Shown piece by piece: positions 5,923-26,495 of a stretch of DNA of 64,000 nt; the stretch's first letter is position 1, and each line of letters opens with the position of its first letter. Source of the DNA: Ignavibacteriota bacterium (GTDB taxonomy: Bacteria > Bacteroidota > Ignavibacteria > Kapaibacteriales > UBA2268); assembly GCA_024636855.1 (NCBI GenBank), contig JAGXGG010000075.1, positions 23,360-87,359 of the forward strand. The letters are read 5' to 3'. The notes under the pieces are model-generated. The model was given only the letters and a program-made list of their open reading frames with translations. It had not been told where the DNA came from and did no database searches. The position numbers were made by a program, and so were the translations under genes.

Positions 5923-7581
5923 ATGACTACTAAAAGAACAGTAACTGTACCAAGAGGTACCGAATTAACTTGTAAGAACTGGCAACTTGAAGCCGCGTAC
6001 CGTATGATACACCACAATCTAGACCCCGAGAATGCCGAGAAACCAGAAGAGCTAATCGTATATGGTGGGCTAGGAAAAGCTGCTAGAAATTGGGAAAGCT
6101 TCGATGCTATTACCAATACCCTCAAGAATATGGACATAGATGAAACTCTTTTAGTTCAGTCAGGCAAGCCAGTTGGTGTTGCTAAGACTTATTCTGCTGC
6201 TCCTAGAGTAATAATAGCAAATTCGAACCTAGTTCCGAATTGGGCAAATTGGGAACATTTCCGTGAATTAGATAAAAAGGGTCTGATGATGTACGGTCAG
6301 ATGACAGCTGGTAGTTGGATATACATTGGTACGCAGGGAATAGTACAAGGGACTTATGAGACTTTCGCTGAGTGTGCTAGACAGCATTTTGGTGGTACAT
6401 TAAACGGTCGATTCCTATTGACAGGCGGTATGGGTGGAATGGGTGGTGCACAACCACTAGCCGCTAAATTCGCTGGCGCTGCTTCTATCACGGTCGAAAT
6501 AGATGAAACAAGAATAGACAAGCGTATCCACGACGGATATTGCGATGTAAAGGTTGATAATCTGGACGATGCACTAAGAGTAATGAATGAAGCTAAAAAT
6601 AACAACGAAGCAAAGTCTATAGGGCTAATTGGGAATACAGCAGAAGTTCCTCCTGAACTTTTGAGACGTGGTATTGTTCCAGATATAGTGACAGACCAAA
6701 CTTCGGCACATGACCCACTAAACGGTTACTATCCAGCTGGGTATAGCAAAGACGAAGCTGATAAGCTAAGAGCTGCTGACCCAGAGAAATATTTAGCAGA
6801 AGTTTATAAATCCATAGCTACTCACGTAGAAACTATGGTTGAATTCCAGAAGAAAGGAGCCGTTGTGTTCGATTATGGAAATAATATACGTGGTATAGCT
6901 CAAGACAATGGCGGCTATAAAGATGCTTTCGCATTCAAAGGATTCGTACCTGAATATATCCGTCCTCTATTCTGTGATGGTAAAGGGCCCTTCCGTTGGG
7001 TAGCCCTATCAGGTAATCCAGACGATATCGCAGTTACTGATGCTGCAATCAAAAATCTTTTCCCTGATAACGAACCGCTACATAGATGGATAGATAATGC
7101 TGCCGCTAATATCGGCTACCAAGCATTACCAGCAAGAATTTGTTGGCTTGGCTATGGCGAAAGAGCGCTAGCAGGACAGTTATTCAACGAGCTAGTAAGA
7201 ACTGGCAAAGTCTCTGCTCCAATCGTAATAGGTCGTGACCATTTGGATTGCGGTTCAGTTGCTTCACCTTACAGAGAGACAGAGGGAATGCTAGATGGCT
7301 CTGATGCAGTTTCTGATTGGGTGTTCCTAAACTTTGCACTGAACGCTATCGGTGGTGCTTCGTGGGTGTCTCTTCACCACGGTGGGGGAGTAGGTATGGG
7401 ATTATCACAACATGCAGGCATGGTAGTCGTCGCTGATGGTACAGATGAAGCAAAAGGCAGATTAGAAAGAGTTCTAACTTATGACCCACTAATGGGGATA
7501 CTAAGACACACAGATGCTGGCTACGAAAGAGCCGCAGACAATGCAAAGAAATTCGATATAAATATACCAATGGGTAAGTAA
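5923..7581 (+). CDS. hutU: Urocanate hydratase
   Basis: [40 protein letters not shown] and [18 protein letters not shown] motifs. Confidence 0.98.
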
Positions 7582-7582
7582 A

Positions 7583-8191
7583 ATGAAAGCAATAGTAATA
7601 GGTGCCACAGGCACAATAGGAAAAGGAATAGTAGAGGAACTAGAAAGCAAGGGATACGAAGTTATCTCTGGTCACAGAAACTCAATAGTGAGCATAGACA
7701 TAGATAACCCCGAATCAGTTCACAATTTCTTCGAAAGTACAGAAATGGTAGATGCAATAATATGTGCAGCTGGTAGTGCAGCATTCGCTCCAGTGAGTGA
7801 ACTAGACGAAGAAAAAATCCAATCTAGTTTGAATAGCAAGTTCGCTGGTCAGCTAAGAGTAGCCAAATATGGTATGAAAAATCTACATAAGAATGGAGCA
7901 ATCATCTTGACTGGTGGTATGTTCGCTTATGCTCCTTGGCCATCAACTTCTATTATTTCAGCAGTGAACAAAGGACTAGAGGGATTTGCTCTAGGTGCGA
8001 CTTTAGAAATGGAAGATGGGAAACGAATTATGGTGGCTCTTCCACCACTACTATCAGAGTCAGCTGAGAAAATGGGAATGCCTACAGACCCATGGCCAAA
8101 CTCTAGCGAAGTAGCTAAATCATATTCCAAAGCATTGGAAAGTGGCAAAAGTGCCGACGTATTCTACGTAGATGGTTACGAACCAAAGTAG
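7583..8191 (+). CDS. Short-chain dehydrogenase
   Basis: N-terminal Rossmann motif IGATGTIG and DAIICAAG. Confidence 0.9.
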   Translation: MKAIVIGATGTIGKGIVEELESKGYEVISGHRNSIVSIDIDNPESVHNFFESTEMVDAIICAAGSAAFAPVSELDEEKIQSSLNSKFAGQLRVAKYGMKNLHKNGAIILTGGMFAYAPWPSTSIISAVNKGLEGFALGATLEMEDGKRIMVALPPLLSESAEKMGMPTDPWPNSSEVAKSYSKALESGKSADVFYVDGYEPK

Positions 8192-8205
8192 TTAGAATAA
8201 ATCCA

Positions 8206-8242
8206 TGTCACTCTGATAACGCCGAAGGCGTTATCAGAGTCT
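8206..8242. repeat. Long palindrome (REP-like)
   Basis: actctgataacgcc-gaa-ggcgttatcagagt, a perfect 14-bp stem. Confidence 0.7.
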
Positions 8243-8266
8243 AGGTGAATAAGTAGTTGATAATTT

Positions 8267-8297
8267 AAGAGGATCTTGAAAAAGGTTCTCTTTTTTT
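8267..8297 (+). terminator. Intrinsic terminator after hutU-SDR
   Basis: aagaggatctt-gaaa-aaggttctctt followed by a T run. Confidence 0.65.
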
Positions 8298-8334
8298 ATA
8301 TATTACATTTCGGGAAACACTATGGATTTATAAT

Positions 8335-9012
8335 ATCAAACTCATCACAATCATATTTTTAGCTTTTGCTATCCCTTTTAGTGGGTATGGGCAAGTTATT
8401 GATGAAGACCCTTTGACTAATTGTAGAGGACCATTACCTAATTATCTGCACTTTAACACAGGTGTTAATTATTCAAAACTTAATGGTAGTCAACTTAAAA
8501 ATATAGACTTTAATCAAAGATATCAGGTCTCGTTTACTTATGAAGTTTATTTTGGAGACCAATATGTCGATCCTATAAATTCATTTGAATACGGGTTGAG
8601 TTATAATCAAAACGGGTTTAAACACGAAAATGCAAATGGAAAAGTAGAAACAATAAATTATGAATACCTATCTATACCAATAACATACAACTATATTGTT
8701 TATAATACATTTCCAAAAAGAGAACAAAATCGCTTTTTTGATCATATTCTATTGCTTCGTGGTGGAGCGTACTTAAGTTATTTAATGAATAGTAATGTTG
8801 ATAATAATAAAAATTCAATACCTACTTTAGATTATGGAATTAAATTTGGGCCTAGAATAGAATTTTTACCATTTTCATATTTCTTTTGCACTCTGGAATA
8901 TAACTTATTCTTAGGTTTAGGTGATTTTAGCGGTGATTTTGAGAAGAGTAATAATATTTCTCATTCGATAGAACTTGGTGTTGGTATGTATTTTCGATTT
9001 TTTTATTATTGA
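8335..9012 (+). CDS. Outer-membrane beta-barrel (PorT-like) cassette 1, non-ATG start
   Basis: Signal peptide repeat in frame with ORF 8413..9012; GVNYS, YLSIPI, GGAYLSYL and DYGI motifs; aromatic C-terminus. Confidence 0.8.
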   Translation: MKLITIIFLAFAIPFSGYGQVIDEDPLTNCRGPLPNYLHFNTGVNYSKLNGSQLKNIDFNQRYQVSFTYEVYFGDQYVDPINSFEYGLSYNQNGFKHENANGKVETINYEYLSIPITYNYIVYNTFPKREQNRFFDHILLLRGGAYLSYLMNSNVDNNKNSIPTLDYGIKFGPRIEFLPFSYFFCTLEYNLFLGLGDFSGDFEKSNNISHSIELGVGMYFRFFYY

Positions 9013-9021
9013 GATAAATGA

Positions 9022-9663
9022 ATCAAACTACTCACATTCATATTGCTTGTTTTTGCTATTCCTTATAGTGGGTATGGGCAGGTGGGTGTGAACCCTCTAA
9101 CATTTTATCCGACATCAAGACCTTTTTATCTTGGTCTAAATGGAGGATTGAATTATTCTAAAATCAATTACGATGACGCATCCACGGAATACCTCCCTTC
9201 AGTTCAGTTGGCAATCGAGTTTCAGTCATTTCTTTCTTCATATAAAAATGCAAGAAGTACATTACTGTATGGGGTGAGCTACGAATTAAAACAGTTTAGT
9301 ATTCTGAACTCAAGTAATGAATCAATACAATTGGAATCAAGTTATTTATCATTCCCTATAAAATATCAATACTATTTTACTGATTTGCAAAAGAGTATTC
9401 CTGTTAGTGTAGTACTAGGGGGCTTTTATAGTTTTAAGCTTGATGAAAGTTCTATAGACAAAGATATTGAGTATTTACCAAATAGTAATTATGGTATTAT
9501 TGTAGGTCCTAAAATAGAAATAATTTTAAATTATGGATTCTTTTTAAACCTTGATTATAACTTTCAATATGGTTTTGCATCGTTGAAAAATTCTATTTCG
9601 ACTACTAATAACATAAGTCATATAATAAACATCGGTTTCAAATTTCCATCAACAGTATTTTAA
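9022..9663 (+). CDS. Outer-membrane beta-barrel cassette 2, non-ATG start
   Basis: In-frame TGA immediately precedes ATC AAA; GLNGGLNYS and YLSFPIKY motifs; C-terminal IGFKFPSTVF. Confidence 0.8.
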   Translation: MKLLTFILLVFAIPYSGYGQVGVNPLTFYPTSRPFYLGLNGGLNYSKINYDDASTEYLPSVQLAIEFQSFLSSYKNARSTLLYGVSYELKQFSILNSSNESIQLESSYLSFPIKYQYYFTDLQKSIPVSVVLGGFYSFKLDESSIDKDIEYLPNSNYGIIVGPKIEIILNYGFFLNLDYNFQYGFASLKNSISTTNNISHIINIGFKFPSTVF

Positions 9664-9681
9664 ATTAAAAAAGCAACAAAT

Positions 9682-10338
9682 ATCAAACTACTTACAATCA
9701 TATTGCTGGCTTTTGCTATTCCATTTAGTGGGTATGGGCAGTTGAGTGACTCTGAATTAAGTACTCGTTACTTTATGGATTACTTTACATTAAGTTCTGG
9801 GGTTAATTTCGTAAATGTTACTCAAAATAGTAATGAAATATTTGGTAGTTATCGTGGCTTTCAGGCAAATTTGACTTATGAAAAATACATTGGCTCCAGT
9901 TACACCAAACCGACAAACTCAATAGAGTTCGGAGTAAGCTACATTAGTAAAGAATTCGCTAGTAGTTATAATAATTCCCAAAACTCATTAAATGTGTATT
10001 ACTTATCTTTGCCGATAAACTATAATACGCGATTTTTATCTGTGTTTCTGATGAAAGTAGGAGGTTATGTGAGCTATAAGTTAAATAACCTAGATGGTTT
10101 TTACAGAAATTATTCTAGTGAAAATTTATTGACTTTGCCCGAACTCGATTATGGAATACACGTTGGTACTCGCCTAGAGCTAAATGAGATATCTAGTGAA
10201 GTCTCTATTCCTGTCTTTATAGAATATAATCTCCAATATGGCCTAGTTAGTATAGAAGAGATTTTACCAAACAGTTTTAATGGTACTCATACTATAAACC
10301 TTGGGGTAAAATTTCCAATAGTTGTATCTAAAAAGTAA
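9682..10338 (+). CDS. Outer-membrane beta-barrel cassette 3, non-ATG start
   Basis: SSGVNF, YLSLPINY, VGGYVSYKL, DYGI and EYNLQYGL motifs. Confidence 0.8.
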   Translation: MKLLTIILLAFAIPFSGYGQLSDSELSTRYFMDYFTLSSGVNFVNVTQNSNEIFGSYRGFQANLTYEKYIGSSYTKPTNSIEFGVSYISKEFASSYNNSQNSLNVYYLSLPINYNTRFLSVFLMKVGGYVSYKLNNLDGFYRNYSSENLLTLPELDYGIHVGTRLELNEISSEVSIPVFIEYNLQYGLVSIEEILPNSFNGTHTINLGVKFPIVVSKK

Positions 10339-10354
10339 TTATTACAGGTATATT

Positions 10355-11011
10355 ATCAAACTAATCACAATCATATTACTAGCTTTTGCTATTCCATACA
10401 ATGGGTATGGGCAAGGGGATCAAGATGACCCATCAGACCGTCCTCCAAGAGCCCAACCGTTTTTAATTGGCTTAAGTAGTGGTATAAACTATTCTAATAT
10501 GATGTATGAAAATACTTCAACTGAATTTATGTTTTCTGGAAAAATTTCATTGGATTTTGAATACCCAATGCTCTATATTAATGAATATCGCAGAGACTTC
10601 ACTTTTTCCACTGGAATTAGTTTCGATAATAAAAACTTAAATATAAATGATGCAAACAATAACCAGAAACAGTCAAACATAACATTTCTAACAATTCCAA
10701 TAAAATATGAATTACTAATAGGTACAAATTATTCAGAAAATAAACTTAGAACCAGCATAGTGGTTGGTCCTTCATTTAGCTTTCTTATATCTAATCCCTT
10801 TAAAGTAATTAAAGAAAAACCACTATGGCTAAATGTAGGAATAATCTTAGGTCCTAAATTTGAATATGTTTTAAACCCTGAACTTTTTATGTTTATAGAG
10901 TATAATTATCAAATTGGGCTAACTAAGCTCTATGATATTGAAGCATTAAATGCAATTAATAGCCATATTGTAAATATAGGATTCAAAATCCCTTCAACCG
11001 TTTTATTTTAG
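10355..11011 (+). CDS. Outer-membrane beta-barrel cassette 4, non-ATG start
   Basis: GLSSGINYS, FLTIPIKY and GPSFSFL motifs; C-terminal IGFKIPSTVLF. Confidence 0.8.
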   Translation: MKLITIILLAFAIPYNGYGQGDQDDPSDRPPRAQPFLIGLSSGINYSNMMYENTSTEFMFSGKISLDFEYPMLYINEYRRDFTFSTGISFDNKNLNINDANNNQKQSNITFLTIPIKYELLIGTNYSENKLRTSIVVGPSFSFLISNPFKVIKEKPLWLNVGIILGPKFEYVLNPELFMFIEYNYQIGLTKLYDIEALNAINSHIVNIGFKIPSTVLF

Positions 11012-11027
11012 AGGCAGGATAAACAAT

Positions 11028-11659
11028 ATCAAATTCATCGCAATCATATTACTAGCTTTTGCTATCCCTTTTAGTGGGTATTCTTCAATGGGTCCTGGCC
11101 CTGCACATCCTATCTGCATTGGCTTAAGTGGAGGTGTTAACTACTCAAATATAAGGAATGATATTTTTTCTTCGGAAAGCAATCCTTCTGAACAATTTTC
11201 ATTATATTTCGAACATCGCTTAGGTAATATTAAGGCGAAGTCAAGATTGGGATCGGTTGCTTTTGGGATAGGTTTTAATAATAGAACAATGAACTTAACG
11301 GATTCAAATAATATAGAATATAAATCAAGTCTAAATTACATAACAATCCCAGCAATGTATCAATTCCCGTTTTTTGGTTTAGATAAAGAAAACAAGTTTA
11401 GTGCCTATTTTTTTTTGGTTTTTCATTAAATCTTTACGTTTCTCAATCTAATAATCGAGTTGTAAAGAATCCTCATTGGCTATATGTTGGAGTTTTAATT
11501 GGACCTAAAATTGAATATGAAATAACTTCTAATCTGTCAATATTTATGGATTATAATTATGAGTTTGGAATAACAGATATTCAGGATATAGATAAAATAA
11601 GTAGGAGTACAATGCACTTAATCAACATAGGTTTCAAAGTACCTACAACCATATTTTAA
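11028..11659 (+). pseudogene. Outer-membrane beta-barrel cassette 5, frameshifted at a T9 tract
   Basis: ORF stops at 11429. The -1 frame continues GFSLNLYV...GPKIEY...IGFKVPTTIF* to 11659. One extra T at 11408-11416 restores a 210-aa protein. Confidence 0.8.
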
Positions 11660-11665
11660 AGAAAA

Positions 11666-11840
11666 TTATACCGCTCCTCTGGAGCTTATTTGTCTTTTTT
11701 CAATTCGAATGCTACAGATATTAAGCCCCTCTGGGGCTGTAATGGATTATTGAATTATACTAAACTAACCACGTAGTGGCTAAATATCTGTAGTAAAAAG
11801 TCAACCCACAATACCAATCAGCCCCGTAGGGGTTGAATAT
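11666..11840. repeat. REP cluster, family A (GCTACAGATAT-n-GCCnCTnCGGGGC)
   Basis: gctcctctggagc, gctacagatattaagcccctctggggc, ccacgtagtggctaaatatctgtag, gccccgtagggg. Confidence 0.85.
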
Positions 11841-12010
11841 AAAGTATTGTAACATTAGATATTTAATAGTCTTGAAAAAGGTTCTCTTTTTATATATATT
11901 ACATTTTGGGAATCACTTTGGATTTATAATATCAAACTCATCACAATCATATTACTAGCTTTTGCTATTTCTTTTAGTGGATATGGGCAGGGGTAAGATA
12001 AACCATTTGA

Positions 12011-13432
12011 TTATTTAGAATTTGCGAGCTTTTTAATTAGTCCATTGAATATAAATCCGTGGAATGGGAATACCGAAAACCAATATAGCCTACCAGCTAG
12101 TCCTAAGGGTCTGAAAGTAGCCGTTTGTATTATATATCCATCTTCTACTTTGAATTCTAACCATGCATCCCCAGGTAATTTCATCTCAGCAAAAAGTAAT
12201 AACCGACCTTCTTCTTTATCAGCATATAGCACTCGCCAAAAATCCAAAGCATCGCCTGTTGATATTGTTAACTTATTTGTTCGACCTCTCCTGAGTCCTA
12301 CTCCACCAACGAATTTGTCTAATATACCACGAATTTTCCATAGCCAATTACCATAGTACCAACCGGTTTCACCACCAATTTTCCATATATTATTTATACA
12401 GGTATCTCTGTCTGCAATTTTTCTAGTTCGTTTATCTTTGAATGAGCCAAATTCAGGTACTTTTACAAATTCACTTATGTTGAAATTGATACCACTGCTA
12501 GAGTATGAATCTTTCCAACTTGAATAGATATTATTGTCTTCAATTCTTTTAAATGCCTTACCGATAGCTTCTTTGAATGAGATGGGCTCTACACCTAATA
12601 TTCTATTTATATCATGGTTACGGCATATTACTTCTACTTTCATGCTATTGACTAATGAACGAGCTAGTCGATATGAAGTAGACGTAACAAAATACAACCA
12701 ATAAGATGACAATTTCGGTGTCATTAGCGGTACTGTAAATATTTTCCGTTTCAAGTTCCTTGCTTCGGCAAATTGGAGTAGCATTTCTTTGTAAGTCAGA
12801 ATATCATAGCACCCAATATCAAAATTCTTATCATAAGTTTCTTCTTTCAAAATTGATTTCGTAAGAAATGTTAGTACATCAGATATACCTATTGGTTGAC
12901 ATCTAGTTGAAAGCCATTTCGGTGCTATCATAACGGGTAATTTTTCTACTAGATCTCTTATTATCTCAAATGAAGCGCTACCAGAACCCACTATAATACC
13001 TGCTCTCAGGCATGTAAAGTGATATGTTCCTTTGCCTAGTTCTTCTTCTACTTTTTTTCTAGATTCTAAATGTTTGGAGAGTTTGGACTCATTGATAATA
13101 CCGCTTAGGTATATCACCTGCTGAGCATTAGTATTAGAAATTCTCTTTCTGAAATTAATTGCAGATTGCTGTTCTAATTCTGTGTAATCATCAGACGAGG
13201 ACATAGAATGAACCAAATAATATGCTACATCTATGTCATCAGGTATATTTGACAAACTATCTTCTTTGAGTAAATCAATTTCTACTATCGAGATATTGGG
13301 AGCTAAAGAATTAGCATAGTTGAACCTTGTTTTGTCTCTGACACAGCAAACAACGTGATGCCCTTCCTCAACGAGTAGTGGTAACAATCTTTTACCTATA
13401 TAACCTGTAGCACCAGTAAGAAGAATTTTCAT
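12011..13432 (-). CDS. SDR/NAD(P)-binding oxidoreductase with DUF2867 domain (YbjT-like)
   Basis: LTGATGYIG, LRAGIIVGSGSASFE, GDALDFWRV and AEMKLPGDAWLEF motifs. Confidence 0.92.
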   Translation of the reverse strand: MKILLTGATGYIGKRLLPLLVEEGHHVVCCVRDKTRFNYANSLAPNISIVEIDLLKEDSLSNIPDDIDVAYYLVHSMSSSDDYTELEQQSAINFRKRISNTNAQQVIYLSGIINESKLSKHLESRKKVEEELGKGTYHFTCLRAGIIVGSGSASFEIIRDLVEKLPVMIAPKWLSTRCQPIGISDVLTFLTKSILKEETYDKNFDIGCYDILTYKEMLLQFAEARNLKRKIFTVPLMTPKLSSYWLYFVTSTSYRLARSLVNSMKVEVICRNHDINRILGVEPISFKEAIGKAFKRIEDNNIYSSWKDSYSSSGINFNISEFVKVPEFGSFKDKRTRKIADRDTCINNIWKIGGETGWYYGNWLWKIRGILDKFVGGVGLRRGRTNKLTISTGDALDFWRVLYADKEEGRLLLFAEMKLPGDAWLEFKVEDGYIIQTATFRPLGLAGRLYWFSVFPFHGFIFNGLIKKLANSK

Positions 13433-13482
13433 ATTACCTATTACGTATCATGGTACTATTTAATATATTTTATAATCTTATG

Positions 13483-13722
13483 GTTACAGATATTAAGCCA
13501 ATTCGTGGCTTATATGGAATTAATCCGCCTTCTAACTCCGCTCAGGCATCATAATTCTGACCTAGCGGGGCAGTGTTTGTTTTGTAGCATCCCATTTCAA
13601 CAGATATTATGCTCCGATGGTGCCGCAATTCTGTATTGAATTATCCTAAATTAGCCACGTAGTGGTGATATATCTGTAGCTAAATGAATAGATAAAAATC
13701 AATTGCCCCGTAGGGGTAATAT
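13483..13722. repeat. REP cluster, family A, upstream of the transposase
   Basis: ttacagatattaagcc, caacagatattatgctcc, agccacgtagtggtgatatatctgtagc, gccccgtagggg. Confidence 0.85.
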
Positions 13723-13762
13723 ATTTATTTCCAGAATAATTGATTTTTTATTAATTTTATAA

Positions 13763-14212
13763 ATGCCTAATACATATCATCAAATATATTTGCACATTGT
13801 TTTCTCTACTCTAAATAGGGAAAGGACTATTCGTGACCCATTGAAAACAGAACTTTTGAAATACATTAATAAAATTATTCAAAACAATGAATCAAAACCA
13901 ATTTGTTTGAATGCTCACATTGATCATGTACATTTATTAATTGGGATGAACCCATCAATAAAGATTAGTGATTTAATTCGTGATATCAAATCAAGTAGTT
14001 CAAAGTGGATAAATGAAAACCGAAAACTAAACGACAAGTTTAGTTGGCAATCTGGCTACGGTTGTTTCTCTGTGTCGAAATCAAGTTTACAGTCGGTTAT
14101 CAGATATATAGATAACCAAGAGGAACACCATAAAGTAAAATCCTTCAAAGATGAATATCTTGAGTTATTAAAGAAACACGGTGTTGAATTTAATATCGAT
14201 TATGTCTTTTAG
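13763..14212 (+). mobile_element. tnpA: IS200/IS605-family Y1 (HUH) transposase, REP-associated (RAYT-like)
   Basis: YLHIVFST, DHVHLL (HUH), FSWQSGYGCFSVS and YIDNQEEHH motifs; REP palindromes on both sides; no tnpB. Confidence 0.93.
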
Positions 14213-14475
14213 TATTCCACCCCTACGGGGCGGATTGGGTTGTTAGCTAGTCAATGGGGCTACAGGTATTGAGCCACTACGTGGCTAATAAAGTATCACA
14301 AACAAAATTGAATTCAAAAACCGTTTTCCAAATATCAATCGTAAATGCCCCAGAGGGGCAGTATATCTGTAGCAACCAAGTTTGAAAAAGTTAGAAAAAG
14401 CCACGTAGTGGCGATATATCTGTAGCCAATGTGGCTACCACCCACACACCACCAGCCCCGTAGGGGCGGTATACC
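14213..14475. repeat. REP cluster, family A, downstream of the transposase
   Basis: cccctacggggc, gctacaggtattgagccactacgtggct, gccccagaggggcagtatatctgtagc, gccacgtagtggcgatatatctgtagc, gccccgtaggggc. Confidence 0.88.
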
Positions 14476-14502
14476 TTTAAGTTATTAATTTTCTTTCAAT
14501 CA

Positions 14503-14543
14503 AAAAAAATCCTCATTTCTTCAAGAAACAGGGATTGTAATTA
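14503..14543 (-). repeat. 41-bp direct repeat containing a terminator, copy of 17765-17805
   Basis: aaaaaaatccYcatttcttcaagaaacagggattgtaatta, 1 mismatch between copies. Confidence 0.9.
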
Positions 14544-14555
14544 CATTATTCATTC

Positions 14556-15320
14556 TTAATCTTTTATTTTGATTTCGATTCTTTCATTTTCTAATTCGAT
14601 ATTGAAATAAACAAAACCATATTCCAGATTAAAATAATATGTTGCCTTGTTGATATTCCTTGATCCATTCAATTCTTGACATTCACATTTTATTACCCAA
14701 ACATCCAGCATTCCCTTATTCGACTTATAATCCGATTCTCCCTTAACCATATATGTACAATCCGCTAATTCAGTCTTGTCAATTTCAAGCTCTTTAGTCT
14801 CAGACACATAAGAAGGTTCGTCTGATTTATTGACGTTTGACTTTACTACAGTTTGTTTTACAGTTGTTTTTTTGGGTCTAGCTAAAATTTTAGTATTGAT
14901 TGTTGAATTGAATAATGGCAATACAACTTTAGGTTCTAATATTTTTTTATTCAAATCAATAATGTTAACTAAAGGCGGTAAACTTAATTCAAATGCTTTA
15001 AAATTACTAAAGTCAACATTTTGATTTTCTTTAACAGGAAAAGCAGAGCTCAAATCTATAATAGGGTCAAAATTTAATGTTTGGATTATCATATTCTGAT
15101 TAGAACCAGGCATACCAGAATAATTAAGAGTCCAGGTCCAAGTTTGATCAGAATTTGTTTCATCCTTATTACTTTTTAAATTCAAATCATACCTTAGAGT
15201 ATCATTTTCTCGGACATGAGTTACCTCATAATTAAAAGTAGCTTGGCTTTCGTACACATCTGACGAATATGCTATGTTAAAAGCAATAATAAAAAGAAAT
15301 GAATAAATTAGAGGTCTCAT
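14556..15320 (-). CDS. Secreted hypothetical protein
   Basis: Signal peptide; C-terminal YYFNLEYGFV motif. Confidence 0.8.
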   Translation of the reverse strand: MRPLIYSFLFIIAFNIAYSSDVYESQATFNYEVTHVRENDTLRYDLNLKSNKDETNSDQTWTWTLNYSGMPGSNQNMIIQTLNFDPIIDLSSAFPVKENQNVDFSNFKAFELSLPPLVNIIDLNKKILEPKVVLPLFNSTINTKILARPKKTTVKQTVVKSNVNKSDEPSYVSETKELEIDKTELADCTYMVKGESDYKSNKGMLDVWVIKCECQELNGSRNINKATYYFNLEYGFVYFNIELENERIEIKIKD

Positions 15321-25901: not shown

Positions 25902-26495
25902 TTACACCAACTTATCTGCATTTATATCGCTCATAGATTTGAGTGTACCATGCTCAGCTATGTTATGTAGTGCCTTCACAGCTTTTAGGATTGATTTGGT
26001 TAGTTCGCCGTTCCATTCTTCCTCGGTGAATTCGGAGAGTACATAGTCAACCAGCTCTCCAGGGCCGAAGTTCTTGCTAATACCCATTCGTAGTTTGTAG
26101 AATTGGTCTGTATCTAAATGAAAAAGTAGTGATTTTAGTCCATTGTGACCACCAGCACTACCACCAATTTTCAAGTGAATTTTACCCAACTCAAAATTGT
26201 ACTCGTCAACTAGTACTATTATATTTTTCGTAGGAACTTTATATTTCTTAATTGCAGCTCGTACAGATTCACCCGAATTATTCATATATGTAGTCGGAAG
26301 TAGGCAAAGTATGTTCTTGTCACCAATCTGTACTTTCGCTTGGAATGCCTGCAATCCGTCAGATTGGTTGAAGTCCTTATTGTTGCGAAGCACAAATTCA
26401 TACAGAGCAAGCCATCCAATATTGTGGCGAGTCTTCGAGTACTTTGATCCTGGGTTGCCTAACCCAACGAATATATAGTCGAATGTATTTTTCAT
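25902..26495 (-). CDS. pth: Peptidyl-tRNA hydrolase
   Basis: GLGNPG...TRHNIG, PTTYMNNSG and GGHNGLKS motifs. Confidence 0.97.
   Translation of the reverse strand: MKNTFDYIFVGLGNPGSKYSKTRHNIGWLALYEFVLRNNKDFNQSDGLQAFQAKVQIGDKNILCLLPTTYMNNSGESVRAAIKKYKVPTKNIIVLVDEYNFELGKIHLKIGGSAGGHNGLKSLLFHLDTDQFYKLRMGISKNFGPGELVDYVLSEFTEEEWNGELTKSILKAVKALHNIAEHGTLKSMSDINADKLV

What the first reader, a model, noticed from the sequence alone, without database searches (positions are those of the whole stretch)
8274..11996. Array of start-codon-less outer-membrane protein cassettes, each headed by the same 60-bp signal-peptide repeat
Seen: six copies of a 60-bp repeat (8335, 9022, 9682, 10355, 11028, 11931; spacings 687, 660, 673, 673, 903) encode IKL(I/L)TIILLAFAIPFSGYGQ. 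Five are fused in frame to ~200-aa beta-barrel bodies that are highly divergent from one another. This inverts the usual pattern, where signal peptides diverge fastest. Many differences between copies are synonymous, suggesting the repeat is translated. None has an in-frame ATG at the start of the signal peptide. Inference: a cassette system for surface variation, in which the repeat is a recombination/gene-conversion anchor that moves silent bodies into an expression site or captures new ones, possibly varying a phage receptor.
Basis: partly seen in the sequence, partly recalled or inferred. Interest (0 to 1): 0.88.

Follow-up and report, generated by a model that had tools for sequence, protein, structure and literature searches.

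The report
Outer-membrane protein genes starting with ATC
This is a tandem operon of small outer-membrane barrel protein genes that share a signal peptide and probably begin at the rare weak start codon ATC, not a store of silent cassettes.

Summary
Six copies of a ~60-bp repeat lie at the stated coordinates. All begin ATC AAA and encode a signal peptide. Four head intact 213-225-aa bodies, one a frameshifted body, and one is a 21-codon stub.

The bodies are predicted 8-stranded OmpA/OmpX/OmpW-like barrels. Pairwise identity is about 27-41%.

The silent-cassette reading is not supported. No ATG-headed copy was found in the genome, in nine congeners or in a metagenome scan. Of 21 copies, 18 start with ATC, 2 with ATT and 1 with TTG at the same codon. 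A distant homolog in a sister genus has ATG AAA.

A Shine-Dalgarno-like triplet sits at the usual distance in 17 of 21 copies, against 14% of other ATCAAA sites. Ortholog bodies show dN/dS 0.15-0.37. Three unrelated secreted-protein genes in this genus also have ATC or ATT at the start position.

Best reading: a translated operon with conserved near-cognate starts. Array content differs between species, with stubs and one case of concerted signal evolution, so the repeat is plausibly a recombination substrate. Expression is untested.

The parts
8267..8292 (+). Terminator-like hairpin with T-run after the upstream SDR gene. Its 3' half overlaps the -35 of the array promoter.
   Evidence: 11-pair stem followed by TTTTTATATA. 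The same hairpin stands in relatives.
8276..8304 (+). Sigma-70-like promoter TTGAAA-17-TATATT of the array. Nearly identical in congeners.
   Evidence: 10 of 12 positions match. Conservation is seen. A consensus match only, not shown to be active.
8323..8334 (+). Mini-ORF ATG GAT TTA TAA ending 1 nt before ATC. Its GGA is also the Shine-Dalgarno-like triplet for ATC.
   Evidence: ATG or TTG followed by an in-frame TAA is kept in all 8 promoter-bearing copies. Its role is inferred only.
8335..9012 (+). Copy 1: ATC start, 20-residue signal peptide, 225-codon barrel protein, stop TGA.
9022..9663 (+). Copy 2: ATC start directly preceded by in-frame TGA. 213 codons. PF13568, 40.7 bits.
9682..10338 (+). 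Copy 3: ATC start, 218 codons. Ortholog of G001_3.
10355..11011 (+). Copy 4: ATC start, 218 codons. PF13568, 36.4 bits. Ortholog of G001_2. This copy was modelled as an 8-stranded barrel.
11028..11659 (+). Copy 5: ATC start, body broken by a frameshift between 11399 and 11420 (T-run). Probably a pseudogene.
   Evidence: Contigs of two DNA runs show the same sequence, but these runs may be the source sample.
11673..11685 (+). Terminator-like hairpin GCTCC-TCT-GGAGC with a T-rich tail, at the end of the five-gene unit. The same spacer follows array modules in G001 and G009 and lies upstream of the stub in G004.
11700..11869 (.). Hairpin-rich spacer. The hairpin GCCCCGTAGGGG at about 11821 recurs on both sides of the Y1 transposase gene at 13763-14212.
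11870..11996 (+). Second promoter copy (TTGAAA-17-TATATT at 11872-11900), followed by signal-only stub copy 6 (ATC at 11931, 21 codons, TAA at 11994-11996).
   Evidence: (D2, 93% identical to 8274-8393)

Best explanation
The locus is a transcribed and translated tandem operon of paralogous small (about 195-residue mature) 8-stranded outer-membrane beta-barrel proteins of the OMP_b-brl_2 kind, in an Ignavibacteria-like genome.

Each gene starts at a conserved near-cognate start codon, AUC, read by initiator tRNA as Met. This gives M-K-L-I-T-I-I-L-L-A-F-A-I-P-F-S-G-Y-G|Q, a normal Sec signal peptide. A Shine-Dalgarno-like GGA/AGGA 8-12 nt upstream and an unstructured, A-rich start region place the ribosome. 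The weak codon probably keeps output low or makes it depend on conditions that relax start-codon scrutiny.

One promoter (8276-8304) and one terminator (11673-11685) frame five genes.

The shared 5' module stays alike through selection on the signal peptide and start context, together with gene conversion. It also serves as the homology for unequal recombination, which adds, deletes and truncates genes. This explains why array content differs between species.

Shown here: the sequence anatomy, the conservation, the predicted fold and purifying selection. Inferred: initiation at AUC, low output, co-transcription and the recombination mechanism.
For: 1. N-terminus boundary. In copy 2 an in-frame TGA directly precedes ATC. 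G005_1 likewise has TGA directly before ATT ATT AAA. The conserved signal peptide can therefore only begin at that ATH codon.

2. Homologous position.
- 18 of 21 copies from 8 genomes have ATC, 2 have ATT and 1 has TTG.
- A distant sister-genus homolog reads ATG AAA at the head of a 20-residue signal ending FGQ.
- Codon 1 is ATC in 16 of 16 close copies, while the Ile codon 13 varies (ATT 13, ATC 3).

3. Ribosome-binding signal.
- The genome uses Shine-Dalgarno sites, with an AGGA peak at -10.
- A passage in PMC10783764 lists Ignavibacteria with anti-SD CCUCCUUU.
- AGG, GGA or GAG starts at -14..-8 in 17 of 21 copies, against 414 of 2884 (14%) other ATCAAA sites.
- The second codon is AAA, in line with 67% A at position +4 of ATG genes.
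- The start regions are predicted to be unpaired.

4. The genes look functional.
- ORFs of 213-225 codons stay open in a 33% GC genome.
- Ortholog dN/dS is 0.37 and 0.15.
- The AlphaFold2 model has pLDDT 81, with an N-terminal helix and 8 strands.
- Foldseek matches OmpA TM domain, Ail/OmpX, OmpW/OprG and NspA at E 4e-7 to 3e-5.
- Two of four copies score above the PF13568 gathering cut-off.

5. The same start usage elsewhere in the genus.
- An LTD-domain protein has GAGGA-ACT-ATC-AAG in 7 of 7 genomes, with no canonical start.
- A NAGPA-domain protein has ATT...ATT AGA in 10 of 10 genomes, with TAG directly upstream in 2.
- A Reg_prop protein has ATT in G000 where 5 orthologs have ATG and 1 has TTG.

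6. Precedent in print.
- AUC supports initiation with N-terminal Met at 1-2% (0.1-3% in other constructs) of AUG in E. coli (10.1101/063800, passages).
- ATT attenuates the surface pilus protein EbpA (PMC4447247, abstract).
- An ATC-started uORF has ribosome occupancy in S. meliloti (preprint passages).

7. Operon signals: a promoter-like site before copy 1 and a terminator-like site after copy 5.
Against: - No expression evidence of any kind. No RNA holder was listed and the one RNA run laid nothing.
- In E. coli AUC is about 30-1000-fold weaker than AUG, so real output could be negligible.
- 4 of 21 copies lack the Shine-Dalgarno-like triplet, among them intact copy 3 and the single-copy G007_1.
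- Copy 4 has an in-frame TTG 11 codons upstream. One database relative is called with a start 4 codons upstream (P0006). Some copies could therefore use other starts.
- Genome-wide, Shine-Dalgarno motifs are not enriched before in-frame ATC (7.6% against 6.6% overall).
- The initiator tRNA is canonical, with three G-C pairs, so nothing suggests a lineage-wide relaxation.
- The copies are related to one another and may be homogenised by conversion, so 18 ATC codons are not 18 independent observations.
- One of five bodies in this genome is frameshifted, and G001_4 carries an internal TGA. Some decay is therefore going on.
Confidence: 0.65

Rival explanations
1. Silent-cassette system. The copies cannot be translated as they stand. 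The 60-bp repeat serves to move a body behind a complete 5' end elsewhere, or to capture new bodies, so as to vary a surface protein.
For: - No canonical start at the signal peptide.
- The repeat is far better kept than the bodies.
- Array content varies between species, and signal-only stubs exist.
- One low-depth contig of run X2 joins the copy-6 promoter variant to the copy-1 body.
Against: - No ATG-headed copy in the genome (96% complete, 110 contigs), in 9 congeners or in the metagenome scan.
- The copy directly behind the promoter also has ATC, in all 8 promoter-bearing copies.
- All repeats are direct, so exchange between them would delete rather than switch.
- ATT, TTG and ATG stand at the homologous codon in relatives.
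- A Shine-Dalgarno-like triplet precedes 17 of 21 copies.
- The X2 contig can be a k-mer path artefact, because 34 bases are identical between copies 1 and 6.
Confidence: 0.05
2. Decaying array. An ancestral ATG was lost (ATG to ATC), the change spread through the copies by gene conversion, and the genes are now untranslated remnants.
For: - Copy 5 is frameshifted, G001_4 has an internal TGA, and three congeners plus one metagenome contig carry only stubs or reduced arrays.
- Body dN is 3-4 times that of the flanking SDR gene.
- A comparable ATG-to-ATC change is discussed as a possible inactivation in Neisseria (PMC10210955, one passage).
Against: - Four ORFs of 213-225 codons remain open in a 33% GC genome.
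- Flank dS of 0.5-1.0 between the ATC-bearing genomes shows how long the ATC state has lasted, yet ortholog dN/dS is 0.15-0.37.
- Signal-peptide pN/pS is 0.40.
- The Shine-Dalgarno-like triplet and the promoter are conserved.
- Unrelated genes in the genus keep ATC or ATT in the same way.
Confidence: 0.1
3. Coupled re-initiation (a variant of the best explanation). AUC is used mainly by ribosomes that have just terminated nearby. For the first gene they come from the 3-codon mini-ORF that ends 1 nt before ATC. For the others they come from the preceding barrel gene, whose stop lies 9-18 nt upstream. Translation of the array would then be obligatorily coupled.
For: - A mini-ORF (ATG or TTG, 1-2 codons, TAA) is kept in all 8 promoter-bearing copies, and overlaps ATT AAA in G003_1 and G005_1.
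- The stop-to-ATC distances in the window are 9, 18, 16 and 16 nt.
- The NAGPA gene also has a conserved upstream mini-ORF beginning ATG CAA CAT.
Against: - Short ORFs arise easily by chance in AT-rich leaders.
- The ATG of the mini-ORF overlaps the GGA that serves as the Shine-Dalgarno-like triplet, so its conservation may have that cause alone.
- The LTD gene with ATC has a plain GAGGA site.
- No experiment bears on this.
Confidence: 0.15

Closest known systems
Small 8-stranded outer-membrane barrels: Pfam PF13568 (OMP_b-brl_2); structural relatives OmpA TM domain, OmpX/Ail, OmpW/OprG, NspA
   Same: Two of four copies score above the PF13568 cut-off. The predicted model has 8 strands with an N-terminal signal helix. 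Foldseek's best hits are these proteins. Three of four copies end in an aromatic residue.
   Different: - Sequence identity to solved structures is 10-15%.
- No NCBIfam model matches.
- The subfamily is narrow: 8 clusters in 5.8 billion proteins at E<=1e-5.
- It was found strongly in only 6 of 9 congeners, plus one sister-genus genome.
- The genes lack a canonical start codon.
Genes with near-cognate AUU/AUC starts: E. coli infC and pcnB (AUU), E. faecalis ebpA (ATT), an S. meliloti ATC uORF
   Same: A conserved ATH codon stands where the N-terminus must begin, and a ribosome-binding signal lies upstream. In ebpA the product is also an exported surface protein whose display the weak codon attenuates. 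For E. coli, only infC and pcnB are described as confirmed (passage).
   Different: Here the codon is AUC, not AUU. It is shared by a whole tandem paralog family (18 copies in 7 genomes). It is not experimentally shown. No autoregulatory logic like that of infC (recalled, not from a call) is evident.
Silent-cassette or expression-site surface variation, such as Mycoplasma vsa/vsp, Neisseria pilE/pilS and Borrelia vlsE (recalled from general knowledge, not from a call)
   Same: Tandem copies with a conserved 5' signal-peptide region and divergent bodies. Truncated copies are present.
   Different: - No complete expression copy.
- All copies have the same 5' end, including the promoter-proximal one.
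- Repeats are direct only.
- No dedicated recombinase was seen.
- Order and content look fixed within the assembly.
Paralog families kept alike at the 5' end by concerted evolution, such as Neisseria opa and Helicobacter hop (recalled, not from a call)
   Same: In G003 the signal region is more alike within a genome than between orthologs. Copy number differs between close species.
   Different: No repeat-tract phase switch is present in the leader. Among the ATC-type genomes, within-genome similarity (49.9 of 60) hardly exceeds between-genome similarity (48.2 of 60).

Membership tests
PF13568 OMP_b-brl_2 (small outer-membrane beta-barrel) | HMM score above the curated gathering cut-off (27 bits) | tested here: met
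   Copies 2 and 4 score 40.7 and 36.4 bits. Copies 1 and 3 and the N-part of copy 5 have no hit at E<=0.01, but they are homologous to copies 2 and 4 by tblastn, with E values from 1e-5 to 1e-33.
PF13568 OMP_b-brl_2 (small outer-membrane beta-barrel) | Closed antiparallel beta-barrel of about 8 strands | tested here: met
   AlphaFold2 model of copy 4 from a 20-row alignment: pLDDT 81.2, pTM 0.72, 8 long strands. Foldseek hits to OmpA, Ail, OmpX, OmpW, OprG and NspA at probability 1.00. This is a prediction, not a solved structure.
PF13568 OMP_b-brl_2 (small outer-membrane beta-barrel) | Cleavable N-terminal signal peptide and a C-terminal aromatic barrel-assembly signal | tested here: inconclusive
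   The N-terminus is K followed by 11 hydrophobic residues and G-Y-G-Q, and is modelled as a helix over residues 2-16. No signal-peptide predictor was available. C-termini end in Y, F, K and F for copies 1-4.
Silent-cassette / expression-site variation system | One complete expression copy (start codon and 5' end), with silent copies lacking it | tested here: not met
   0 ATG-headed copies in the genome, among the 19 copies found in 8 of the 10 genomes of the genus searched, and among the 2 copies of a metagenome contig. The promoter-proximal copies carry the same ATC.
Silent-cassette / expression-site variation system | Recombinant junctions between repeat i and body j within a population | tested here: inconclusive
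   Only short contigs at about 4x depth were available. One X2 contig joins copy-6-type promoter bases to the copy-1 body, and one X3 contig joins 9903 to 11138 on opposite strands. Both are at low depth and could be assembly artefacts. No long reads were available.
Silent-cassette / expression-site variation system | Dedicated recombinase or inverted recombination sites | tested here: not met
   The repeats are all direct. The ORFs between the flanking SDR and DUF2867 genes are only the barrel genes. The nearest mobile-element gene is a Y1 (IS200-like) transposase at 13763-14212.
Genes initiated at a near-cognate AUH codon (infC/pcnB/ebpA kind) | The conserved N-terminal coding sequence cannot be reached from any ATG, GTG or TTG | tested here: met
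   TGA directly precedes ATC in copy 2. Copies 1, 3 and 5 have no canonical start between the upstream stop and the hydrophobic core. Copy 4 has an upstream in-frame TTG, so this does not hold for that copy.
Genes initiated at a near-cognate AUH codon (infC/pcnB/ebpA kind) | The codon is conserved in orthologs or aligns with canonical starts in relatives | tested here: met
   ATC 18, ATT 2, TTG 1 of 21 copies. ATG AAA in the sister-genus homolog.
Genes initiated at a near-cognate AUH codon (infC/pcnB/ebpA kind) | Ribosome-binding signal at the proper spacing | tested here: met
   17 of 21 copies, against a 14% background. The genome's own AGGA peak is at -10.
Genes initiated at a near-cognate AUH codon (infC/pcnB/ebpA kind) | Direct evidence of initiation (N-terminal peptide, start-site profiling, reporter mutants) | not testable with these tools
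   No RNA or protein data for this organism were reachable.

The most novel reading that the evidence does not exclude
This Ignavibacteria genus deliberately keeps a set of envelope and secreted protein genes on AUC or AUU start codons. The set includes the barrel array, an LTD-domain protein and a NAGPA-domain protein. Together they would form a translational regulon that responds to start-codon scrutiny, for example to initiation factor 3 level. Within it, the barrel array's shared promoter, weak start and signal module would act as a portable adaptor behind which very different barrel bodies are gained, lost and exchanged between lineages by homologous recombination, giving population-level surface variation.
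Probability: 0.2. Interest if true: 0.7.

Novelty: new variant of a known kind. Interest (0 to 1): 0.5.

Why it matters
Natural bacterial genes that start at AUC are very rarely documented. The E. coli study I read names only two confirmed non-canonical starts, both AUU.

Here a whole paralog family, plus unrelated exported proteins, keep AUC or AUU across species that have diverged by dS 0.5-1.0. If the start is real, this offers a natural system for studying how and why weak start codons are maintained.

It also exposes a blind spot in gene callers. The database entries for these proteins are all truncated or wrongly extended at the N-terminus. Signal peptides, and hence the localisation of such proteins, are therefore mis-predicted in metagenome annotations.

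The locus also shows, in an uncultured lineage, how a shared 5' module goes along with rapid turnover of surface-protein genes.

Tried and rejected
Expression and recombinant reads.
- The look-up of sequencing runs listed no RNA holder.
- The one metatranscriptome of the same study laid 0 contigs.
- The DNA runs gave only contigs of about 4x depth and 300-600 nt, so neither co-transcription nor repeat-to-body junctions could be judged.
- This blank says nothing about expression.

Expression copy.
- Searched with a degenerate pattern, with blastn and tblastn on the genome, with a profile over 41 genomes, over genome contigs and by a metagenome pattern scan.
- In the metagenome scan 21 of 22 hits were unrelated chance matches. 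The one family hit (L066) again has ATC twice.

Relaxed initiation machinery.
- Only 29 tRNAs are assembled. The initiator tRNA has the usual three G-C pairs and a 1:72 mismatch.
- infC has an ATG available.
- There is no genome-wide excess of Shine-Dalgarno motifs before ATC, ATT or ATA.
- I rejected this as an explanation.

RNA element in the repeat.
- No Rfam match on 7500-14600 at E<=1, apart from a chance miRNA hit at E 0.26.
- Folding z-scores of the five start regions run from -1.5 to +1.4.

Read-through fusion of successive genes. Copies 1-2 and 2-3 are in frame, but copies 3-4 are not, and two TGA codons separate 1 from 2. Rejected.

Candidate on contig C11. The ATT there is more simply a canonical ATG or TTG 8 codons upstream, with a 1-nt indel in G000. 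It is not counted as support.

First signal-peptide scan. It was too loose, because it picks positions just upstream of real ATGs. It was replaced by the scan.

Loop-specific variability. Across the 20-row alignment it was not clear-cut. Only the single close ortholog pair shows clustering, in L3 (8 of 12) and L4 (4 of 8).

Literature.
- Searches found no paper on a conserved bacterial AUC-start gene family, or on start codons in Ignavibacteria genes.
- I saw listings only, apart from the passages and abstract cited above.
- Supplementary files were not opened.

Rows dropped.
- The body tree and dN/dS used 15 copies of at least 160 codons.
- Left out were the frameshifted G000_5, the stubs G000_6, G004_1 and G008_2, and the duplicate locus G003x.
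- G001_4 entered as the 164 codons before its internal TGA.

Full report
OBSERVATION.

A whole-genome blastn finds these six places and no others. A degenerate pattern with up to 3 mismatches hits 6 forward, 0 reverse and 0 for the reversed control.

- Four repeats head intact ORFs of 225, 213, 218 and 218 codons.
- The fifth body changes frame at a T-run between 11399 and 11420.
- The sixth copy is 21 codons long. It also repeats the 60 bases upstream of copy 1, at 93% identity over 120 nt.

No in-frame ATG precedes any signal peptide. Copy 2 has TGA directly before ATC. Bodies are 27-41% identical between copies. The family occurs nowhere else in the 3.1-Mb, 33% GC, 110-contig assembly.

WHAT THE PROTEINS ARE.

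Copies 2 and 4 pass the PF13568 (OMP_b-brl_2) cut-off. No NCBIfam model matches. An AlphaFold2 model of copy 4, built from a 20-row alignment, has pLDDT 81. It shows an N-terminal helix (residues 2-16) and eight long strands. Foldseek finds the OmpA transmembrane domain, Ail/OmpX, OmpW/OprG and NspA at E 4e-7 to 3e-5. These are therefore small 8-stranded outer-membrane barrels. The subfamily is narrow, with 8 clusters in the large protein collection at E<=1e-5.

WHERE IT SITS.

Records of close relatives are titled Ignavibacteriae or Chlorobiota MAGs.

The array lies between hutU plus an SDR gene and a convergent DUF2867 gene. The upstream flank is found beside the array in G001, G003, G004, G007, G008 and G009. 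SDR protein identity is 94-96% for the close species, 89% for G007 and 62% for G003. The DUF2867 gene was found only in the G008 locus held.

A sigma-70-like promoter (TTGAAA-17-TATATT, 8276-8304) overlaps the terminator hairpin of the SDR gene. A terminator-like hairpin follows copy 5 at 11673-11685. A second promoter copy precedes the stub.

THE START CODON.

This is the core of the matter.

Across the genus I collected 19 copies from 8 genomes and 2 more from a metagenome contig. Of these 21, 18 begin ATC AAA. G003_1 and G005_1 begin ATT AAA, with TGA directly upstream in G005_1. G003_2 begins TTG AAG at the same codon. A distant homolog in a sister genus begins ATG AAA, followed by a 20-residue signal ending FGQ. 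No copy has ATG.

Codon 1 is ATC in 16 of 16 close copies, whereas the Ile codon 13 varies between ATT (13) and ATC (3).

The genome uses Shine-Dalgarno sites. AGGA peaks at -10 upstream of ATG genes, and 67% of second codons start with A. This agrees with a published table row for Ignavibacteria. An AGG, GGA or GAG triplet starts at -14..-8 in 17 of 21 copies, against 414 of 2884 (14%) other ATCAAA sites. The start regions are predicted to be unstructured.

Read from ATC as Met, the product is MKLITIILLAFAIPFSGYG|Q, an ordinary signal peptide. A glutamine after the cleavage site is a habit of Bacteroidota that I recall from the literature, not from a call.

Gene callers allow only ATG, GTG and TTG. 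They have truncated or over-extended every database member of the family.

IS ATH INITIATION CREDIBLE IN THIS LINEAGE?

Two genome scans looked for N-termini that no canonical start can reach. They yielded three further genes.

- An LTD-domain protein has GAGGA-ACT-ATC-AAG, a TGA seven codons upstream and no canonical start, in 7 of 7 genomes with a full-length match.
- A NAGPA-domain protein has ATT-(ATT/CTT/AAT)-ATT-AGA in 10 of 10 genomes, with TAG directly upstream in two.
- A Reg_prop protein has ATT AAA in G000, preceded by GAGGA, where five orthologs have ATG and one has TTG.

A fourth candidate, on C11, is better explained by an upstream canonical start plus an indel. I do not count it.

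The phenomenon is rare, not genome-wide. There is no Shine-Dalgarno enrichment before ATH codons overall. The initiator tRNA is canonical.

In print:
- AUC gives 1-2% (0.1-3% in other constructs) of AUG expression in E. coli, with N-terminal Met. Only infC and pcnB (AUU) are called confirmed there (passages).
- ATT attenuates display of the E. faecalis pilus protein EbpA (abstract).
- An ATC-started uORF shows ribosome occupancy in S. meliloti (passages).

ARE THE GENES ALIVE?

Ortholog pairs give dN/dS 0.37 (G000_4/G001_2) and 0.15 (G000_3/G001_3). The signal region gives pN/pS 0.40. The flanking SDR gene has dS 0.5-1.0 among the ATC-bearing genomes. The ATC state is therefore old, and the ORFs have stayed open throughout.

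Body dN (0.09-0.12) is 3-4 times that of the flank (0.02-0.03). In the closest pair, changes cluster in predicted loops L3 (8 of 12) and L4 (4 of 8).

Some decay is visible. Copy 5 is frameshifted, and G001_4 has an internal TGA.

ARRAY DYNAMICS.

Content differs between genomes:
- G000: 4 intact genes, 1 broken gene and 1 stub
- G001: 4 genes in two promoter-headed modules
- G009: 2 genes
- G003: 2 genes
- G008: 1 gene and a stub
- L066: 1 gene and a stub
- G007: 1 gene
- G005: 1 gene
- G004: a stub only
- G002 and G006: weak partial matches to other ORFs only

Only two ortholog pairs are clear in the body tree. The other end branches are 0.45-1.9 changes per site.

The same terminator-plus-hairpin spacer ends modules in G000, G001 and G009, and lies upstream of the stub in G004.

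In G003 the two paralog signals share 49 of 60 bases. The ortholog pair G003_1/G005_1, whose bodies are 68% identical, shares 33 of 60. That is a signature of concerted evolution. Among the ATC-type genomes, within-genome similarity (49.9 of 60) and between-genome similarity (48.2 of 60) are nearly equal. Selection and conversion cannot be separated there.

The repeat is thus plausibly the substrate of unequal recombination and conversion. The silent-cassette and expression-site part does not.

VERDICT.

This is a plain but unusual paralog operon. It consists of known-kind barrel proteins with a family-wide, conserved near-cognate AUC start and a fast-changing gene content.

Initiation at AUC, low output and co-transcription are inferred. 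No RNA or protein data could be reached.

Noticed in passing
G000:C5:8444-10063 (+), locus L077:245-1864: A 540-codon Lamin-tail-domain (PF00932) protein with a signal-like N-terminus. It begins GAGGA-ACT-ATC-AAG, with TGA seven codons upstream and no canonical start for 107 codons. ATC is conserved in 7 of 7 genomes of the genus that have a full-length match.
   Followed up: yes
G000:C30:48207-49463 (-), locus L032:108-1364: A 419-codon NAGPA (PF09992) protein whose hydrophobic N-terminus can only start at ATT (ATT ATT ATT AGA). This holds in 10 of 10 genomes, with TAG directly upstream in G004 and G008. A conserved upstream mini-ORF begins ATG CAA CAT.
   Followed up: yes
G000:C16:12289-13365 (-), locus L033:90-1166: A Reg_prop-repeat protein. 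G000 has ATT AAA preceded by GAGGA, exactly where five orthologs have ATG and one has TTG.
   Followed up: yes
G000:C88, minus strand, position 25920 of the reverse complement (contig length 47458): A lipoprotein-like N-terminus (IKYLLIIFTILITTTSC) with AAGGAG 5 nt before ATT AAA. A canonical start lies 3 codons downstream, so this is another possible ATT start.
   Followed up: no
G000:C11:59259-61957 (+): Two tandem paralogs of about 450 aa. In the second, a 1-nt length difference in G000 puts the ATG out of frame. In G001 that ATG (TTG in G004) lies in frame 8 codons upstream of the signal peptide.
   Followed up: partly
window 13763-14212 (+), with hairpins at about 11821, 13705 and 14455: An IS200-like Y1 transposase gene (PF01797, 97.7 bits) is flanked by the hairpin GCCCCGTAGGGG, which also lies in the spacer of the barrel array. 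This looks like a REP-type element with its transposase. A possible link to the array rearrangements is untested.
   Followed up: partly
window 8323-8334; also G003_1, G005_1 and the other promoter-bearing copies: A mini-ORF (ATG or TTG, one or two codons, TAA) ends 1-4 nt before the ATC, or overlaps the ATT AAA. It is kept in all promoter-bearing copies.
   Followed up: partly
window 8274-8576, run X2 contig: One 312-nt contig at depth 4.2 carries the three promoter bases typical of copy 6 (at 8311, 8317 and 8322) joined to the copy-1 body. This is either a real exchange between the two promoter modules or an assembly path through the 34 shared bases.
   Followed up: no
window 9903 / 11138, run X3 contig: One 357-nt contig at depth 2.8 joins these two places on opposite strands. 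It is low-depth and comes from a run holding only 11% of the words, so it may come from a relative or be an artefact.
   Followed up: no
G000_4 / G001_2 (window 10355-11011 and L028:2061-2708): This cassette pair has dS 0.25, while the flanking SDR gene of the same two genomes has dS 0.73. This hints that the cassette was exchanged between lineages after they split.
   Followed up: partly
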